Source of the DNA: Azolla caroliniana
Taxonomy: Eukaryota > Plantae > Polypodiophyta
Direction of reading: 5' to 3'
Length of the DNA: 16,719 nt
NCBI GenBank assembly: GCA_043228905.1
Contig: JBHGNT010000725.1
Coordinates: 1-16,719, forward strand
The position numbers were made by a program, and so were the translations under genes. The notes under the pieces are model-generated. The model searched no databases. It saw nothing but the letters and a program-made list of their open reading frames with translations, and had not been told where the DNA came from. How positions within the stretch are numbered: the first letter of the stretch is position 1; each line of letters begins with the position of its first letter. This document shows, one piece after another, positions 450 to 16,719 of the stretch.

Positions 450-945
450 GTGACATACAGAATATACAGCATATCCGTAGGCAGATCTGACGCGTAAGCT
501 TTTCGTTTTCATAGCGATGCCGATAGAGGGGCGTGCTGACTTATTTTGTTACTTAATTCTTATTTTGATAACCCATTCAAAAGATTATTTCTTAATTTAA
601 CTTTACCAACTAAATGGTAAATATCTTATTTCTATCGTAACAATATACTTTTTTTAGCCATATAATCCAAACCATTTAAATAATGATTTATTTTTTACTT
701 ATTTTGTTTTGAAATGCAGTTTTTTTTTTTAATTTTTAACGCTTGTGGTTTTTTGAGAATTTTGTAAATATAGTTAAGAAAGTACAAATTTGCCATGGTT
801 GACGCGGCAAAACAAATAAAGTCTTATATTTATACACAGCGAATCGAATATTTTGAATGAGAGAAATGTTTATTTGAAAAACTGTAATGATACAAATAAA
901 ACATAACATAAATATAAGTAATATAAATTAAAAATATTTGTTTTT

Positions 946-1043
946 TTTACAATTGGTCTAACATGCCATCTACCATTAACGGTAGAAATTAAGACGAAAC
1001 AGACGACATCTGGCGACAAATGCAGAGTCAGACGTAATGTGTG
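946..1043 (-). repeat. Inverted partial copy of the core of the hammerhead-bearing repeat family
   Basis: 946-1018 (tttacaattggtctaacatgccatctaccattaacggtagaaattaagacgaaacagacgacatctggcgaca) is the diverged reverse complement of ~1322-1394. cagagtcagacgtaatgtgt (~1024-1043) matches the reverse complement of acatatttcgtccggctctg in the 14.6 kb array. Confidence 0.85.
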
Positions 1044-1100
1044 TCCGAGAAGTGTTGAGACCACGGGAAATGTTGTGCTTCATACTTGAGCGGGAAAATT

Positions 1101-1480
1101 AAAAATCTACAGTTTGGTAGAAAAACAAACCTATATTTGAAAGATTTCATTCTATCGTCATCTTACGACCGGTTTCGAACTATCTCAGTTCTTATCAGGC
1201 AAACTAGTCAATGGATAAATGTCTCTTAAAAACTCCCATAGATAACCAATATTGGTTGGTATCAAACATTTTGCAATTTGTTTTAAAGATATGTTTGGTC
1301 TGTGATATATTTCATCCGAACTGTCGCTAGATGTCGTCTGTGTTGCCTTGATTTCCACCGTTAATGGTAGATGGCGCGTCAGACCAATTGTAAACTTTTA
1401 TATACCAACAAATATTGGTTAAGTATGGGAACTTTTGACTAGCTTCCCCGATGATAATTGACATAGTTCGAAACCGGTAG
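1101..1480. mobile_element. Dispersed copy of the hammerhead-bearing repeat: inverted arm (1101-1268), core (~1269-1395), truncated direct arm (~1400-1480)
   Basis: 1101-1268 (aaaaatctacagtttggtagaaaa...) is the reverse complement of the 3' half of the 347-bp unit (...ttctaccaaactgtagattttt). 1233-1480 aligns directly with the unit (cccatagataaccaatat...gtttggtctgtga...ggtagatggcgc...ttggttaagtatgggaact...ccggtag). Confidence 0.85.
1162..1203 (-). ncRNA. Minimal Type I hammerhead ribozyme motif, near-intact (single G8A core change)
   Basis: Minus strand reads UUUGC-CUGAUAA-GAACUG-AGA-UAGUUC-GAAA-CCGGUC-GUAAG. It has stem I (UUUGC/GUAAG), stem II (GAACUG/UAGUUC), GAAA, a palindromic ACCGGU stem III and a GUC cleavage triplet (predicted cut between 1167 and 1166). 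Confidence 0.75.
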
Positions 1481-1484
1481 TAAA
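1438..1484 (+). ncRNA. Degenerate minimal Type I hammerhead motif
   Basis: CCGATGA (1448-1454, U4C)-taattg-aca-tagttc-GAAA-CCGGTA. The GAAAC and palindrome are intact, while stems I and II are eroded. Confidence 0.55.
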
Positions 1485-4199: not shown

Positions 4200-5928
4200 T
4201 ATTACTGAAAATTATCTGACGGATTTCAGTGTATTTCTTAAATCTTATTTTGTTCTTTTGAAAAAGTCTGGTGCAGGGTCCGGATACAGGAAGTTTATAT
4301 TTTGAGTCCCAAAGCATATAACAAAATGCCCTCCATTTATCGATTACCATGAAGGTCGAGTCTTTATAGATATCTTCAAAATTGGAAATTACAAAAATAC
4401 AATTGTTCTTGTTTAAAGAAAAAGAAAAGTATTGTATTTTGTGTATTTTATGATATTAAAAAAGATAAAACTGTTGGCTTTTAGGAAGGATTGGCAGTCA
4501 TCAAAAATTTCAAACAGAGCTTTAGTTGTTATTGCCAGAGGTATTGCTACAAACTGGAAAAAAACAATAGCCTACTTTTTATGAAAGCATCAGCACGTTA
4601 GATAAAAAAAGGCAATTTTATTTGCATTTGTAAGATATTCAAATGGCATGGGATTAAATGACATGGGTGTTGTTTCTGATCAGGGCTCCAATTTTTTCAA
4701 ATTAGTAAAAAGAACATTAAAATTATTGACAGAAGAAAATTCCACCTTTTTGATAAATAATAAAAAACTTGTGTATCTCTTCGAGGTACCACACCTTTTA
4801 AAGTCTCCAGAATTTTTGTTTTTATTTTACTTTCCATTACAAAACGGAATCCACTAAGAAAATATTTTTTGGAGAACATCAAGACAAAGATAAGCAATTT
4901 AGAATTACTTTCAAATTGTCAAACGACTATTTGTACCCTAACAACTTTCAGAAGATCAAGGTAAAATTAGACGCGCAAATATGAAGCCATTCGGTAGTAT
5001 GGCTACATATTTGTACTCCCAGAAGTGGCGAAACCAACAGCTACTTTTATAAAACAAATAAATGATTGATTTGATCTTTTAAACTCCAGTAAACTGAAAA
5101 ATTATGGAGAATTTATGGGGATCCAAAAGAAGCCAAATATGTTATTATAAATGTAGCATTTATTTCAAAATTTAAAAGTTCAGAATATCCAAGAAATAGA
5201 TTTTACAAAGCAATTAAAATTTATTTTTGGGTGAAAAATGACAATAAAGGCGATACTAATTATTTTTTAATCTTCACAAGGAAAAGCATACAAATACTTT
5301 TTTTGTTTACGAGGAATTTGAATCAAGATTGTCTTAAACATTTCCAAATCAGGAACTGTTGCGGAAATGCAAAGAATCCCACTTGAGTTATTAAAAAATA
5401 TAAAGCAAGATACCGCCTCTACAGTTGTAACGTTACATACTTATAGTCTATTGGTCGTTTTTACGAACCACTATATGAATCTAAAATCCTCTGAAATGAC
5501 TGCACTGGTCCATGTAGTAGTTTTTTTTTACTAAAATGTTTACTTCAACATTCCTGTGACACATGTACATACTTTAATGAGATGGTCGTATTAGATTCTA
5601 CAATTTTGTGTGGAGATAAGGCTTAGAGCAATGAAAAAACTGAATTGGAAGGTCTAACTATGCCAAGAAAAACTATGGTGGATTTTGTTGATCATTTAGA
5701 AAAAAAAATTATTAGCCAATTTAACGACTTGGCCTATCAAATGAATATTGAAAAACGACTTTTTTAAAGTAAATTTCTCTCATTCTTTAGGCGATTTTTC
5801 ATTTAAATAGTTTATTTCTCTTTACTGTACGTGTATATTTTACCCTTAAATTTGTTAATCAAGACCTTAAACAAGGTAGATACAATAAGATAAAAAATGT
5901 AAAACTTGGCGTTTTACAACATTTATAA
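4200..5928 (+). pseudogene. Fossil P-superfamily (THAP9-like) transposase with many stops and frameshifts
   Basis: Collinear motifs across frames: SPKAY (~4305), KEKYCILC, RALVVIARGIATNWKKTIAYF (cf. ALVFMARGL..NWKQP.AY), VVSDQGSN, FEVPHLLKS (cf. FDPPHLLKS.RN), FQKIKVKLDAQI*SHSV (cf. F.KMKV.LA.Q..SHSV), IND*FDLLNS, LNQDCLKHF..IRNCCGNAKNPT (cf. LNQD.LENFF..IR..G...NPT), and C-terminal KLGVLQHL* ending at 5928. Confidence 0.88.
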
Positions 5929-8686: not shown

Positions 8687-10080
8687 TTTGTTATAGGATT
8701 ACATCATATTTGTTAATTTATTTGTCCCCCATCCGGTATCCTCGCTCCACTTCCTTGACTTGACCGTGATTATTTCGTCCATGATTATGTTGAATAGGGT
8801 GAGGCTTAAACTGTCTCCCTTTTTTATTCCGGTTGTTAAAGGTATTTAATCGGACAATTTATCTGCTATTTTTCTGGATTTGTAGTTATTGGTGTTTAGC
8901 TTGCTAATAAAGGTTATTATGCGGGGGTGTACTTCTCTCTTCTGCAGAAGCGGTACGACGTCCTCTAGCTTTACCATGTCGAAGGCTTGGGTGAGGTCAA
9001 CGAAAAACATAAAAGCCGGCTTGTTAAATTTAATGGCTTTATCAGTTATCTGCCTTATGGTAAATATTGCATCTATAGCGGACCTATTTTTCCTGAAGCC
9101 TTGTTGTTCTTCACATACTTCAGTGTCAGCAATTTCTTTCTCAAATATCTTCATCAGGAATTACGACATTGTGCTTAAGAGGCTGATTCGTCTATAGTTT
9201 GTTGTATCGGTCTTTGCTCCTTTTTTGTATATTGGTATTGTAACGCTATGCTTCCACTCCATTGGTACGTCTATCCCATTTTGTATCTTGTTAAAAAGAA
9301 CCTGGATTTGTTACAATAACATACTACCGCCATATTTTGTCATATCGTTGGATATCTCGTCTATACCAGCCGACTTTCTTTTTTTCAGTTTGCTGGCTAT
9401 ATGTTCTATTCTCTCCAGGGATATGTTCTATGTCGGATGGGTGTTGTCGCCCATTTGTGTTATGATATTCTCGGCGTAGTCTTCTGTTGAGGCGTAGAAC
9501 TCCCTAAAGTGTTTCTCCCAGTCCTCAATTAAAATCTTTGTTATTTGTATGAATTCGTCTATGGGTTTTTTTCGATTTCTGAGCATATTCCCTATCTTTT
9601 TCTGTTCTCCGTAATGGTCTCGTTTCATATCCTTGGAGAATTGTTTCCAGTATGATGTTTTTATTGCTTGTATTTCGCTGTTGACGACTATGTTTCTTGC
9701 AAGCTTGTACTCATTGTATGATATTGTTTTTGATATATACTGTAGGTATAACTCTCGTTTTTTCTTCGCCAGTGACTTGATCTTTTGAGTAAATCATGGT
9801 TTGATATTTGAATTCCTTTTTCCTGTACGGTGGCTTCTTCTCAGCGCTTCTTCTTACTGATAATTGGTTTTTAAAATTAGGGTGCTTCCGGGGGATTGTA
9901 ATTGCCATCCCTTTGCGTTTCCTGGGCATTATGAATGCCGTATAAGAATTTTCAACCGCCTGTTTTGGATCCTTGTTTCCTGATGGTGCTATTGCATGGG
10001 GTCCTGGTCACGTGTTTCGCAAGGAGAATAGATTTCCCAGTAGGCAGTACACCCTGAAAAGGATTAATTAGGCGAGTCTT
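8666..10080 (-). mobile_element. RTE-clade non-LTR retrotransposon, internally deleted, with a (GAA)n tail
   Basis: Minus-strand translation gives the linker KP*FTQKIK...YNEYKLARN...YWKQFSKDMKRDHYGEQKK and RT motifs KSAGIDEI, EWKHSVTIPIYKKG..NYRRISLL, EEQQGFRKNRSAIDAIFTIRQ, FVDLTQAFD, GIKKGDSLSLTLFNIIMDEI. It ends ...cctataacaaa(GAA)7. The 5' boundary is approximate. Confidence 0.92.
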
Positions 10081-11292: not shown

Positions 11293-11811
11293 GACAAACT
11301 ACACTTAAATCATTTAAAATTTGCGAATAACAAAATAGTAGTGGAAAATAATTTGAAGGAATTAAGAAAAAAACACAGCATTTACCTATCTACTACTGAC
11401 AGTAAATTATATAAATCAAAAATCCCAAGCAATGAATAAAGATATATTTTTATTATTTTACGCCCTTTTCTACCAAAGGCTGACAATTCAATTAGCAACT
11501 TACAAATGGGAGCCTTTTCACAAATCTGTTTTGCTGTACTTTGTCTTTTTTTATTAGCAATTTTATTTTTTACTTATTACCTTTCATCACATAACCCAGG
11601 AATTGCATTTTTTGTTTGATGTTATTTTGTGGTGATTTGTATGTATACATGCAATGGAGTTCTTTCTTGTTGGTGAAACTTAGTTTTCATGAAATTCGCA
11701 GCGTTTGTCTATGCACATAAATTTAAAAATATTTATTTCTTTTATTAAGATAATACATAATATTTTTAAAGAACACGTCAAACACTGCCAGATTACATCA
11801 ATAGAACAAGT
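11293..11811 (+). repeat. Copy 1 of a diverged ~520 bp direct duplication containing an RTE 3' end on the minus strand (~11445-11811)
   Basis: Aligns along its length with 12388-12902 (aactacacttaaatc, aatcccaag, ttacgccctt, gctgtactttg, aagaacacgt, cagattacat). Minus strand gives KKMQFLGYVMKGNK*KIKLLI (cf. RTE KRKLQYLGHVMRGEKY). Confidence 0.85.
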
Positions 11812-11814
11812 ATA

Positions 11815-12386
11815 TATATTTTTTAAATCAAATCATAAGGTGAATTTGTCTGTAAAATATAAATTATATATTTAATCTTTCCAATGATTTAATTGCTATC
11901 AAAGTAATCTTAGTGCCATAAAAAACACTTTTTCCACTCCTTAGAACAGTTGAGATAAACTTTTACTGGTTTTACCTTTTTCGATTCGGTTTTTATTTTC
12001 TTAATTGTGTCAAAACGGCGTCCGTGCATTGTCCTTTTGAGTTAAATAGCCAGAATCCGCACGGATCCAAATCAGGCGAATGCGGTGGTTGCGGAACAAT
12101 ACAAGTGGTGTTTTTGTCAAAAATGTGCAGTGTGACGTGGTGCATGATCGTGATGAAGGAACCATGAATTCTTTCCCATAATTTTAGACGTTTTAGATGA
12201 TAGTACAATATCTTGCACGTGGTTCGTCTCCAACGCGTTCTCGGCATGCTTTAACTTCGTTATACCACTTATGTACTTTTTTGTGGTATGTTTAAAATAA
12301 CTATTACCCTTTTGCCATATTTTTAATGTACTTGAATTGAAATATTCGTTTCGCAAACAAAATTTAATGCAAGTTCTTTGCTCAAG
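11815..12386 (-). mobile_element. Mariner (DD34D-type) transposase remnant, internally deleted and 5'-truncated
   Basis: N-terminus EQRTCIKFCLRN (~12383), then NSWFLHHDHAPRHT (cf. HHDNA), VPQPPHSPDLDPCGFWLF (cf. PYSPDLAPCDF.LF) and DYFDS (cf. YFEGD). It ends at a TA run near 11811-11818. Confidence 0.88.
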
Positions 12387-12387
12387 A

Positions 12388-12902
12388 GACGAACTACACT
12401 TAAATCGTCTAATATTTGTAAATCACCAAGTATTAGTAATAAATAATTTGCAAGAATTAGGAAAAAAGTACAGCATTTAGATATCTGCTAATATGGACAA
12501 TAAATTTTATGAAATCAGAAATCCCAAGTGAACAGAGATATATTTTTTTTATTACGCCCTTTCCTACCTAAGGCTGCTATTCAAATTGCAAACGAGACTC
12601 TTTTCAGTGATGTTTTTCGCTGTACTTTGCCTTTTTTGTATTGGCAGTTTTATTTTGTATTTATTACCTTTTATTACATAATCCCGTTATTGCATTTTTT
12701 CCTTAAGAGGTTATTTGTGTGTTTGCATGCGCTGGAATTCTTTATTATTGGTGATTTCCATGAATTTCGCAGCCTATGTCTATACATATAGATTTAAAAA
12801 TATTTAATTATTTTATAATAACAATACAAAACATTATTAAAGAACACGTTAAACAACATGTACATTTAAGCCATGATTTCAGATTACATGAATACAACAA
12901 GT
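12388..12902 (+). repeat. Copy 2 of the ~520 bp duplication containing an RTE 3' end on the minus strand (~12543-12902)
   Basis: Minus strand gives MYRHRLRNSW (cf. YRRMLRISW), TNNKEFQRM (cf. TNEEVLRRM) and GKVQRKTSLKR (cf. GKVQGKRSVGR), ending in an A-rich tail. Confidence 0.85.
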
Positions 12903-14350: not shown

Positions 14351-14786
14351 TACTTCTTTATTCGGTCCCATAATTCTGTCTTAGCTAGCGTTTTCGTAAC
14401 TTCACAATGCGCCTACTATTGGTCAGACACCATAAAAAAAAATTGCATTTTTTTGGCTAAAAAGCTGGATTTATTTAATTCAAACACCCGTTTTTCAAAA
14501 ATTGTTTGTTTTTTATTTATTGACACATTTTGTCCGTCGAAGGATGAATATTTCTCAATGGTTTCCATAGTTAACCAATATTTGTTGGAATGTCACACTT
14601 AACAATTTGTTTCAGATAACAGTTTGGTCTGTGACATATTTCGTCCGGCTCTGGAACTGTCCTAGGTGTCTCTGTCTTGCCTTGATTTTTACCGTTCACG
14701 GTAGATGGCGCATCAGACCTATTTAAAACTGTCTGATGCCAAAAATGTTGGTTAAGTATGGGAACTTCTGAGAGATATTCATCCTT

Positions 14787-14840
14787 CAACTAGCATGCCT
14801 GATGAGAACTGACACAGTTTAAAGCCGGTAGATGTTGTTG
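14787..14840 (+). ncRNA. Minimal Type I hammerhead motif, unit 1 (CUGAUGA intact, GAAA mutated)
   Basis: CAACUAGCAUGC-CUGAUGA(14799-14805)-GAACUG-ACA-CAGUUU-AAAG-CCGGUA-GAUGUUGUUG. The flanks pair as a bulged stem I. Predicted cut after 14830. Confidence 0.7.
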
Positions 14841-15133
14841 AGGTGAAATGTTTCACATATAGATTTGGTTTTCTACCAAACTGTAGATTTTTTATAACTT
14901 ATGCAAAGTTCCCATAGCTAACCAATATTATTTGGAATGACACACGTAACAATTTGTTTCAAATTTGAGTTTGGTCTGTGACATATTTCGTCCGGCTCTG
15001 GAACTGTCGCTAGGTGTCTCTGTCTTGCCTTGATTTTACCGTTTACGCTAGATGGCGCGTCAGACCTATTTAAAACTGTTTGATGCCAAAAATGTTGGTT
15101 AAGTATGGGAACTTCTCGGAGATATTCATTCTT

Positions 15134-15187
15134 TAACTAGCATGCCTGATAAGAACTGACACAGTTTAAAACCGGTAGATGTTGTTG
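15134..15187 (+). ncRNA. Minimal Type I hammerhead motif, unit 2 (degenerate)
   Basis: CUGAUAA(15146-15152)-GAACUG-ACA-CAGUUU-AAAA-CCGGUA-GAUGUUGUUG. Predicted cut after 15177. Confidence 0.62.
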
Positions 15188-15482
15188 AGGTAAAATCTCC
15201 CATATATAAATTTGGGTTTTCACCAAACTGTAGATTTTTTATAACTTATATAAAGTTTCCATAGTTAACCAATATTTTTTTGGAATGACACACTTAACAA
15301 TTTGTTTCAAATATGAGTTTGGTCTGTGACATATTTAGTCCGGCTCTGGAACTGTCGCTAGGTGTCTCTGTCTTGCCTTGATTTTTACCATTTACGTTAG
15401 ATGACTCGTCAGACCTATTTAAAACTGTTTGATGTCAAAAATATTGGTTAAGTATGGGAATTTCTAAGAGATATTCATCCTT

Positions 15483-15536
15483 TAACAAGCATGCCTAATG
15501 AGAACTGACACAGTTCAAGACCGGTAGATGTTGTTG
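15483..15536 (+). ncRNA. Minimal Type I hammerhead motif, unit 3 (degenerate)
   Basis: CUAAUGA(15495-15501)-GAACUG-ACA-CAGUUC-AAGA-CCGGUA-GAUGUUGUUG. Predicted cut after 15526. Confidence 0.62.
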
Positions 15537-16719
15537 GTGTGAAATCTCCCACATATATATTTGGTTTTCAACAGTAGATTTTTTTTAACTAATAAGTAAA
15601 TATTTCCCTTCAATCCCTTTAATATACATCAACTTAAAGGAGTACCTTTGCTATCTTGTTGGTAAATAATATTGTAAATTTTTGGAATGTACACCCCAGA
15701 TGCTTAAAAAAATAAGCTTCATACATTTCCCAAAATAAACATGTTATTTTTTAAATGATATAAACAAAAAGCACTTTAAAGATATTTCTTTGCAACAAAA
15801 CTATGTTAAATTTTCAATGGTAAAAGGCGACACCAGAAAACCTATATGTATGTATAGATGTCAATAGATATATTTAAAATATGCGTAAAATGCTATATAA
15901 AATTGTATTCACATTCTTTTGCTTTTCGTATAAATTATATGCCTGCGACATGCGAGACACTAGATAAAACTTTGGCATTTCATTTCTGTTTTCGGAGACG
16001 CCATTTATGCAAATACGTTGCCTCTGGTTTTATTTCCAACCAGAAAATATGCCGAAAGATTTATGCTCCTAAAAATAATTTAATTAGGTAGTAAGCATTG
16101 TTTAACTTGTTATTAATATCTTTTAATTAGCTCAAAAAAAAATTACTTTTCTATGATAATTTTTAATAAATAGGTAAAAATTGCTTATATTAATAAAATA
16201 AACGGATTTATTTTTAGTAACATATTGTGGTGGTTTTATATTTGGTTTTAATAAATGTAAAATTTATTTGATTTTCAAATATATTTTGTTTTATTTTATT
16301 GATCTATTATATATTTTACCATTTACAATTTTACTAAAAGTTCTTGGCTTTAGAATTGTAGCCATCCAATTTTCCGCCCAGAAAAACCGTTTGTTTGAGC
16401 TGTTTGGGCGCTAATGTATACAATATTTTATTTTCTTATAATAAAGTAAATAAAGTACAAAAAAGCTGTAAGTATTCAAATAAATAAATATTAAAATATA
16501 AGGTACACTCTATTTATGTGAAGATTTAAATCCAGGGACATCGCAAGAATACTGTTGCAAGAATATTGGGTGTAAAGTATATCCTAAATTATTTATTAGC
16601 CTAATTAAGCCTAATAGAGACTGGAAAGAAAAAACATTATTTATAAGATGCAAAATGGTAAGTAAGTAAGCATAATATCTAAAATTTAAATTAAACTAAT
16701 ATTGGGAAAGAAAAATTCT

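What the first reader, a model, noticed from the sequence alone, without database searches (positions are those of the whole stretch)
14536..15590. 347-bp tandem repeat carrying one hammerhead ribozyme per unit: candidate retrozyme family
Seen: three head-to-tail non-coding units, each with CTGATGA-like / 6-bp hairpin / GAAA-like / CCGGTA, and flanks that pair as stem I. Combining the intact motifs from the five copies in the window gives a complete minimal Type I hammerhead: CUGAUGA GAACUG ACA CAGUUC GAAA CCGGU(A/C). Predicted cuts at 14830, 15177 and 15526 would release 347 and 349 nt monomers. Established: minimal Type I hammerheads with a palindromic stem III occur in Penelope-like element pLTRs and in metazoan non-LTR retrozymes, which are small tandem repeats processed into linear and circular RNA monomers. 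Inference: this apparent satellite is the retrotransposed product of a self-cleaving, possibly circular RNA mobilised in trans, since no Penelope RT/GIY-YIG ORF is visible in the window. The element class is known, but whether this family is described cannot be told from the sequence.
Basis: partly seen in the sequence, partly recalled or inferred. Interest (0 to 1): 0.88.

Follow-up and report, generated by a model that had tools for sequence, protein, structure and literature searches.

The report
Triplicated dead copy of hammerhead repeat
Three 347-base tandem units each carry a broken self-cutting RNA motif and likely arose by in-place DNA duplication of one dead insertion of a multi-copy ribozyme repeat family of a known kind, so these copies are predicted not to release the RNA monomers that were proposed.

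Summary
The array is real (14562-15607, three 347-bp units, 9-9.5% apart), and each unit holds a hammerhead-derived motif far above chance. But none of the five copies in the window has an intact core. All three tandem units share G12A (the catalytic base) and a 4-nt deletion beside the cut site, so the proposed cuts are predicted not to occur. The wider family looks intact: in a public DNA run (X1), 148 contigs laid on the 1040-1300 copy mostly restore the full core and stem I. That motif is nearer the canonical amphibian type I form than the 'minimal' Penelope form. The array's ends fall on four TTYCC words exactly 347 bp apart, and unit 1 is colinear with a second, palindromic locus (936-1483). 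This points to in-place triplication of one dead, inversion-bearing insertion, not rolling-circle copying of a self-cleaving RNA. The family fits animal non-LTR retrozymes, likely moved by Penelope-like elements; expression, cleavage and a Penelope partner were not testable. Known class, family not found in my searches. Interest 0.3.

The parts
14536..14561 (-). Single-copy outer end of an inverted piece (reverse complement of the sequence just upstream of the hammerhead); it continues inside unit 1 as the inverted arm to about 14635
   Evidence: 48-nt inverted repeat with 14743-14790, 83%; best match is L- (score 100 over about 104 nt) rather than T1/T2/T3's own direct arm (71/55/59)
14562..14908 (+). 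Unit 1 (347 bp): inverted arm, middle segment, direct arm, broken hammerhead, about 68-nt tail, AT-rich linker
14909..15255 (+). Unit 2 (347 bp)
15256..15607 (+). Unit 3 (347 bp) plus the closing TTYCC word at 15603; homology to unit 2 ends at 15607
14799..14830 (+). Hammerhead core T1, C3 to H17; G12A at 14821, A15.1G at 14824; 4 nt missing next to the cut
15146..15177 (+). Hammerhead core T2; G8A at 15151, G12A at 15168; same 4-nt deletion
15495..15526 (+). Hammerhead core T3; G5A at 15497, G12A at 15517, A14G at 15519; same 4-nt deletion
936..1301 (-). L-: a permuted full unit of the family form (about 341 nt between landmarks 1301/1302 and 960); after the hammerhead and tail it runs through a different segment (V, about 1098-1020) back into the middle segment
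   Evidence: X1 contigs cover 1040-1282
1167..1198 (-). Best-preserved core in the window: G8A only; 5 of 5 proximal stem I pairs, two-sided internal loop, further distal pairs
1207..1483 (+). L+: inverted arm, middle, direct arm and core (1448-1479), ending 4 nt after the cut; colinear with T1 (14536-14830) at 80%, 216 of 270 columns

Best explanation
The three units likely arose by in-place DNA duplication of one insertion whose hammerhead already carried G12A and a 4-nt deletion, and that insertion likely came from a multi-copy, non-coding hammerhead repeat family of the animal retrozyme kind. Proposed steps: (1) the family unit of about 340 nt is transcribed as multimers and self-cleaves, probably as a dimer through its 6-nt palindrome at helix III (inferred from family majority letters and published analogues). 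(2) A Penelope-like RT/endonuclease copies uncleaved or circular RNA in trans into AT-rich DNA, starting downstream of the cut site and leaving inverted pieces (inferred from where copies end). (3) One inversion-bearing form, ancestral to both window loci, gave the insertion at 14536 (colinearity shown; order inferred). (4) After it lost G12 and 4 nt of stem I, the stretch between two TTYCC words was triplicated by slippage or unequal exchange (shared lesions and breakpoints shown; mechanism inferred). (5) The units then drifted about 4.5% each (shown). The array is predicted to be a catalytically dead minisatellite.
For: Shared lesions: G12A and the 4-nt deletion are in 3 of 3 units. At 6 of 12 sites where the X1 majority differs from T2, all three units carry T2's letter. 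G12A slows cleavage about 10^5-10^6-fold (PMC2553840, passages). Window CpG o/e is 0.96, so three independent CpG hits are not favoured. Breakpoints: TTYCC at 14562, 14909, 15256 and 15603, exactly 347 apart; left of the first lies ancestral inverted sequence present once, and homology stops at the last. A circle copied by rolling has no reason to begin and end on its own novel junction. Star-like divergence: 13/12/16 private differences. Family level: 74 and 148 X1 contigs lay on the two stretches, mostly under 90% identical. 26 contigs (452 of 650 summed depth) restore G8; no variant row at G12-A15.1 among the 40 of 44 rows shown. By my hand reading, 6 of 10 majority letters in stem I improve a pair, 2 turn pairs into U-U mismatches and 2 are ambiguous. 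Penelope-type marks: inverted truncated copy at both loci, as described for PLEs (PMC8557442 passages; opposite-strand HHR pairs 100-700 bp apart in PMC4209133). X1 copies give way to mixed AT-rich flanks about 17 nt (13 contigs) and about 68 nt (8+4 contigs) after the cut (my reading of loose ends). Ends past the cut fit internal priming on uncleaved RNA (PMC11167929 passages).
Against: The tandem units keep a stronger fold than the better-preserved L- copy (local z -2.7 to -3.1 vs +0.3; monomer z -2.3 to -3.6 vs +0.1), and the shared change at 15142 restores pairing after the deletion. That could mean selection on a T-type RNA. A star tree also fits one-step copying. One X1 contig (95%, depth 11.8) spans the T-type inverted-arm/middle junction, so the inverted form is not private to this window. 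X1 evidence is biased: T-like copies may not lay on L- at 80%, and could not report core variants because alignments end at 15175. X1 is a single run holding 0.09 of the sampled words and may be a related species. No Penelope ORF was linked to the repeat. No target-site duplication was found.
Confidence: 0.62

Rival explanations
1. A ribozyme-dead, rod-stabilised T-type RNA was itself copied by Penelope machinery as a trimer in one step.
For: Star divergence. Strong rod fold of the T monomers. A pairing-restoring change shared by the three units. Hammerhead cleavage was not needed for insertion in vitro in PMC11167929 (passages).
Against: Both array ends coincide with the novel junction, and the 5' end continues into ancestral inverted sequence that resembles L- more than T's own arm. 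A dead unit cannot cut itself out to form a circle. The rod is explained by the inverted arm alone.
Confidence: 0.18
2. The repeat is only terminal-repeat (pLTR) debris of an autonomous Penelope-like element, not an independent non-coding mobile unit.
For: Inverted truncated copies, two end classes past the cut site and opposite-strand hammerheads are described PLE features. Li et al. 2026 report that retrozymes match pLTRs. This can coexist with in-place triplication.
Against: L- runs from hammerhead through tail and V back to the same landmark in about 341 nt with no ORF, and X1 contigs bridge tail-V and V-middle. The longest stop-free stretch on the + strand of two units is 34 codons. The core lacks the extra base between A9 and G10.1 typical of PLE minimal motifs.
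Confidence: 0.13
3. One reading: the array was retrotransposed from a self-cleaving, possibly circular 347-nt RNA, and the lesions arose later and independently; transcripts would give 347/349-nt monomers.
For: Unit size, low GC and tandem layout match non-LTR retrozymes (PMC7229834). The composite core matches the X1 majority.
Against: The same G12A and the same 4-nt deletion in all three units; no CpG depletion in the window; breakpoints on microhomology; the T monomer differs from the family unit.
Confidence: 0.07

Closest known systems
Animal non-LTR retrozymes (Cervera & de la Pena 2020, PMC7229834; Li, Clavereau & Pollet 2026, 10.64898/2026.07.22.740005)
   Same: Non-coding tandem unit of 150-450 bp, GC under 50%, one type I hammerhead per unit. 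Li et al. found them in 2 of 3 insect genomes (mean 313 bp) and propose birth from PLE termini followed by local amplification.
   Different: This array has 0 of 3 complete hammerheads, so it fails Li et al.'s 'active' rule. Its unit holds an inverted arm in place of the family's V segment. RNA expression is unknown.
Axolotl HHR_Amex1 / newt satellite 2 hammerhead (as described in PMC7229834 and PMC6155905)
   Same: Helix III of one pair capped by a palindromic tetraloop; defined loop 1; dimer-type cleavage expected.
   Different: Here proximal helix I is 5 bp, not 6; helix II can be read as 6 bp + 3-nt loop or 4 bp + 7-nt loop; the host appears to be an invertebrate (inferred). No sequence comparison with the amphibian repeats was run.
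Minimal hammerheads in pLTRs of Penelope-like elements (Cervera & de la Pena 2014, PMC4209133)
   Same: G10.1-C11.1 pair, palindromic helix III region, helix II up to 6 bp, opposite-strand pairs a few hundred bp apart.
   Different: No extra base between positions 9 and 10.1; well-defined loop 1 with a long distal helix; no RT-GIY-YIG ORF seen next to it.

Membership tests
Non-LTR retrozyme | Tandem unit of 150-450 bp, GC under 50% | tested here: met
   Period 347; GC 0.35-0.37
Non-LTR retrozyme | Complete type I hammerhead in at least two consecutive units (Li et al. 'active') | tested here: not met
   0 of 3 tandem units and 0 of 5 window copies intact
Non-LTR retrozyme | Family majority carries the full core and stems | tested here: met
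   X1 majority letters on L- restore G8; no shown variant at G12-A15.1. One run only, biased to L-like copies
Non-LTR retrozyme | Non-coding, no RT ORF | tested here: met
   Longest stop-free stretch 34 codons on +, 72 on -; the equivalent 72-aa frame of unit 1 has no Pfam hit
Non-LTR retrozyme | Highly self-paired monomer | tested here: inconclusive
   T monomers z -2.3 to -3.6, largely from the inverted arm; L- family-type unit z +0.1
Non-LTR retrozyme | Target-site duplication longer than 4 bp when present | tested here: inconclusive
   None at the array; the 11-mer at the L locus is at chance level, 609 of 2000 draws
Non-LTR retrozyme | Expressed as linear and circular monomers; self-cleaves | not testable with these tools
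   No RNA holder listed; no biochemical tool
PLE minimal hammerhead | Extra unpaired base between A9 and G10.1 | tested here: not met
   Stem II starts directly after the first box in all five copies
PLE minimal hammerhead | Short helix I with poorly defined loop 1 | tested here: not met
   L-: 5 proximal pairs, a 3x2 internal loop, distal helix 94% paired over 4 copies
PLE minimal hammerhead | Palindromic helix III region and G10.1-C11.1 pair | tested here: met
   6-nt palindrome in 4 of 5 copies; G-C in T3 and L-, G-U in T1 and T2, broken in L+
PLE minimal hammerhead | Lies in a pLTR flanking an RT-GIY-YIG ORF | not testable with these tools
   No genome held; none among the 12 of 29 window ORFs scanned
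Canonical type I hammerhead (amphibian form) | Loop 1-loop 2 contact (unpaired U seven bases after the cut, terminal A of loop 2) | tested here: inconclusive
   L- has an unpaired U at +7, and the 7-nt reading of loop 2 ends in A (contact described in PMC11875169 passages). The T units lose it. The contact itself was not modelled
PLE-type insertion | Inverted truncated copy at the 5' end | tested here: met
   Both loci, but the inversion is shared and older than either insertion
PLE-type insertion | Optional 3' tail between two priming sites (30-40 bp) | tested here: inconclusive
   End classes at about +17 and +68 in X1, about 50 nt apart; L+ ends at +4; short contigs only

The most novel reading that the evidence does not exclude
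A retrozyme derivative that had lost its ribozyme and gained a stronger rod fold was still copied as RNA by Penelope machinery, which would show in a genome that self-cleavage is dispensable for spread and that the fold, not catalysis, is what the helper needs.
Probability: 0.15. Interest if true: 0.6.

Novelty: new member of a known kind. Interest (0 to 1): 0.3.

Why it matters
The class is known, including in insects. The modest value is as a worked case of how a hammerhead 'satellite' can be born: a tandem array of ribozyme units need not record rolling-circle copying, since shared lesions and microhomology ends here point to DNA-level amplification of a dead insertion. That is the route Li et al. 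2026 suggest, and a caution for tandem-based retrozyme screens. The intact family members, if cloned, would give an invertebrate test of dimer-dependent cleavage.

Tried and rejected
Whole genome: none held, so no copy count, no PLE search, no genome-wide consensus. Sequencing runs: one DNA-type run listed, no RNA holder listed; this says nothing on expression. In one search X1 contigs gave no cover at 15242-15301 (tail-to-arm junction and arm); a hole proves nothing. Pattern scans: family-specific core pattern 0 hits in viral and metagenome contigs; looser pattern 0 in viral and prokaryote genomes and 3 in metagenomes, which share only the core and give no blastn hit to the window. Rfam: no hammerhead hit on window copies. 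One search used a misregistered structure string and was discarded; one search is the corrected count. In one search covariation does not beat shuffles (168-500 of 500), so five copies give no covariation evidence. The 11-mer 'TSD' at the L locus was rejected as chance. Loose ends at 1209 were rejected as true ends because they resemble the family sequence. Independent CpG decay of G12 was judged unlikely. Per-insertion twin priming as the source of the inversions here was judged unlikely, because the inverted arms of the two loci resemble each other more than their own direct arms. Literature: a 16-nt core word found 0 papers; Penelope + satellite DNA + Coleoptera + ribozyme found 0; some searches listed class papers, none naming this family in the listings. 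Supplements: PMC7229834's could not be read; 2 of 3 files of PMC4209133 searched, 0 hits; the Li et al. preprint supplements were not seen and may hold insect family sequences. Earlier scan notes by sequence and by genome: none.

Full report
Observation. The window is AT-rich DNA with decayed transposon pieces; no genome is held for it. TRF finds one long array at 14561-15570, period 347, 2.9 copies. Blastn and nhmmer find only one other locus of the repeat in the window, at about 933-1483. Five hammerhead-like cores occur: T1-T3 in the array, L- (1198-1167) and L+ (1448-1479). A descriptor with core boxes, a 4-bp stem II and a palindromic tetraloop gives 3 hits at two or fewer mismatches against 0.22 per shuffled window (60 shuffles), and 0 hits at zero mismatches. 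So the motif is real, but no copy is intact.

The tandem copies are predicted dead. All three have A at G12, each has a further core change, and all three lack 4 nt next to the cut relative to L-. With the hammerhead structure counted on the five-copy alignment, stem II is 97% paired and the distal part of stem I 94%, but the proximal stem I is complete only in L- and nearly so in L+. G12 is the general base and G12A slows cleavage about 10^5-10^6-fold (PMC2553840, passages). The predicted folds of T1-T3 pair the cut-site bases with the bases before the core. Rfam misses the window copies but finds 2 of 3 unrelated intact controls at E about 1e-6.

The family looks intact. One public run, X1, holds 0.09 of the sampled words; it may be this species or a relative. 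74 contigs lay on 14990-15330 and 148 on 1040-1300, most under 90% identical. On L-, 26 contigs (452 of 650 summed depth) restore G8. No variant is shown at G12-A15.1 (40 of 44 rows shown). G5A is a minority (70 of 595), and the cut base is C or A (484 of 1050 differ). By hand reading of the same table, 6 of 10 majority letters in stem I improve a pair, 2 remove one and 2 are ambiguous. Limits: copies must be 80% like L- to be laid, and cannot report core variants because its alignments end at 15175. The resulting architecture is 5 bp, a 3x2 internal loop with U at +7, a long distal helix, helix II of 4-6 bp, and one pair plus a palindromic tetraloop in helix III. By the definitions in PMC4209133 (parts 1-2 of 4 read) it lacks the extra base before G10.1 and the ill-defined loop 1 of PLE minimal motifs. 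It is closer to the axolotl/newt form described in PMC7229834 (abstract and Results parts 1-2 of 3 read), which cleaves best as a dimer (also PMC6155905, passages).

Two unit forms. L- reads from the direct arm through the hammerhead, a tail of about 68 nt and a segment V, back to the same landmark about 341 nt later. X1 contigs cover this path, and one continues from V into the middle segment. In the array, V is replaced by an inverted copy of the direct arm, which makes the cut-to-cut monomers fold as rods (z -2.3 to -3.6). The L- unit folds no better than shuffles (z +0.1). T1 with its 5' piece (14536-14830) is colinear with 1207-1479 at 80%, and its inverted arm matches L- better than T's own direct arm. 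So both loci descend from one inversion-bearing form; one X1 contig also spans that inversion junction.

How the array arose. TTYCC words lie at 14562, 14909, 15256 and 15603. Left of the first, the ancestral inverted piece continues, once. Homology of T3 to T2 ends at 15607. The units differ by 9-9.5% with 13, 12 and 16 private changes, and share T2's letter at 6 of 12 sites where the X1 majority differs. The simplest account is one insertion that had already lost G12 and 4 nt, then was triplicated between two TTYCC words. Against this: the T copies keep a strong fold and share a change that restores pairing after the deletion, and a star tree also fits one-step copying. I give that rival 0.18.

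How the family likely moves. Inverted truncated copies and optional tails are PLE marks (PMC8557442, passages). A PLE protein primes at two internal sites downstream of the hammerhead and uses uncleaved RNA in vitro (PMC11167929, passages). X1 loose ends with mixed AT-rich flanks lie about 17 and about 68 nt after the cut once their matching letters are allowed for, and T3's T-run sits at the second position. Ends past the cut imply an uncleaved or circular template (inference). No PLE ORF could be linked. Of 29 window ORFs of 70 aa or more, 12 were scanned; the only Pfam hit is RVT_1 at 8846-9157, with LINE-type motifs (recalled).

Comparison and novelty. Li et al. 2026 (parts 1-3 of 5 read; supplements not seen) report non-LTR retrozymes in 2 of 3 insect genomes, tie them to PLE termini, require two consecutive complete hammerheads for 'active', and saw cleavage in 1 of 9 tested dimers. 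The family works like a retrozyme on sequence evidence; this array fails the 'active' test. I did not find the family, but unread supplements and repeat libraries may hold it. Earlier scan reports from other genomes propose two-armed Penelope priming for similar repeats; here the inversion appears inherited rather than made at each insertion. The host was not identified; an invertebrate is my inference from composition and repeat content. Verdict: new member of a known kind, dead at this locus; interest 0.3.

Noticed in passing
window 936-1483: Palindromic locus with hammerheads on opposite strands 250 nt apart; a described PLE pattern, and the best-preserved copy in the window.
   Followed up: yes
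window 8846-9793 (-): Broken LINE-type RT remnant (Pfam RVT_1 4.9e-07 at 8846-9157); not Penelope-type by recalled motifs.
   Followed up: partly
window 11293-11784 and 12388-12855: Dispersed duplication about 1.09 kb apart, 71-84% identical, around what looks like a mariner-type transposase remnant at about 11950-12420 (-) (recalled resemblance; no Pfam hit).
   Followed up: no
window about 4500-5800 (+): Fragments resembling a P-element/THAP-type transposase (recalled resemblance; no Pfam hit for the two frames scanned).
   Followed up: partly
window 14749, 15096, 15445, 1416 (+) and 1466, 15513 (+), 1180 (-): Pol III A-box-like word in the direct arm and B-box-like word over stem II/GAAA, 50-68 nt apart (box patterns recalled), with T-runs in the tail. 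The B-box word may be forced by the ribozyme; chance was not tested.
   Followed up: partly
window 1203-1206 (-) and 14791-14794 (+): A YAG after a pyrimidine-rich stretch sits at the 5' edge of proximal helix I, where the intron of D. virilis Penelope ends (PMC4209133). Possible splice acceptor; untested.
   Followed up: no
middle segment of each unit, e.g. 14998-15062: Two words that resemble CTCF-type sites (recalled resemblance only).
   Followed up: no
L001 1-1137: Metagenome contig with a 123-nt terminal direct repeat (circular or tandem unit of about 1014 nt) and an intact hammerhead core that Rfam misses.
   Followed up: no
L002 726-792, L003 634-700: Related contigs with intact hammerheads (Rfam HH9, E about 1e-6) near CCCTAA telomere-like tracts; L002 has a 68-nt terminal repeat. 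Could be telomere-associated PLE ends; untested.
   Followed up: partly
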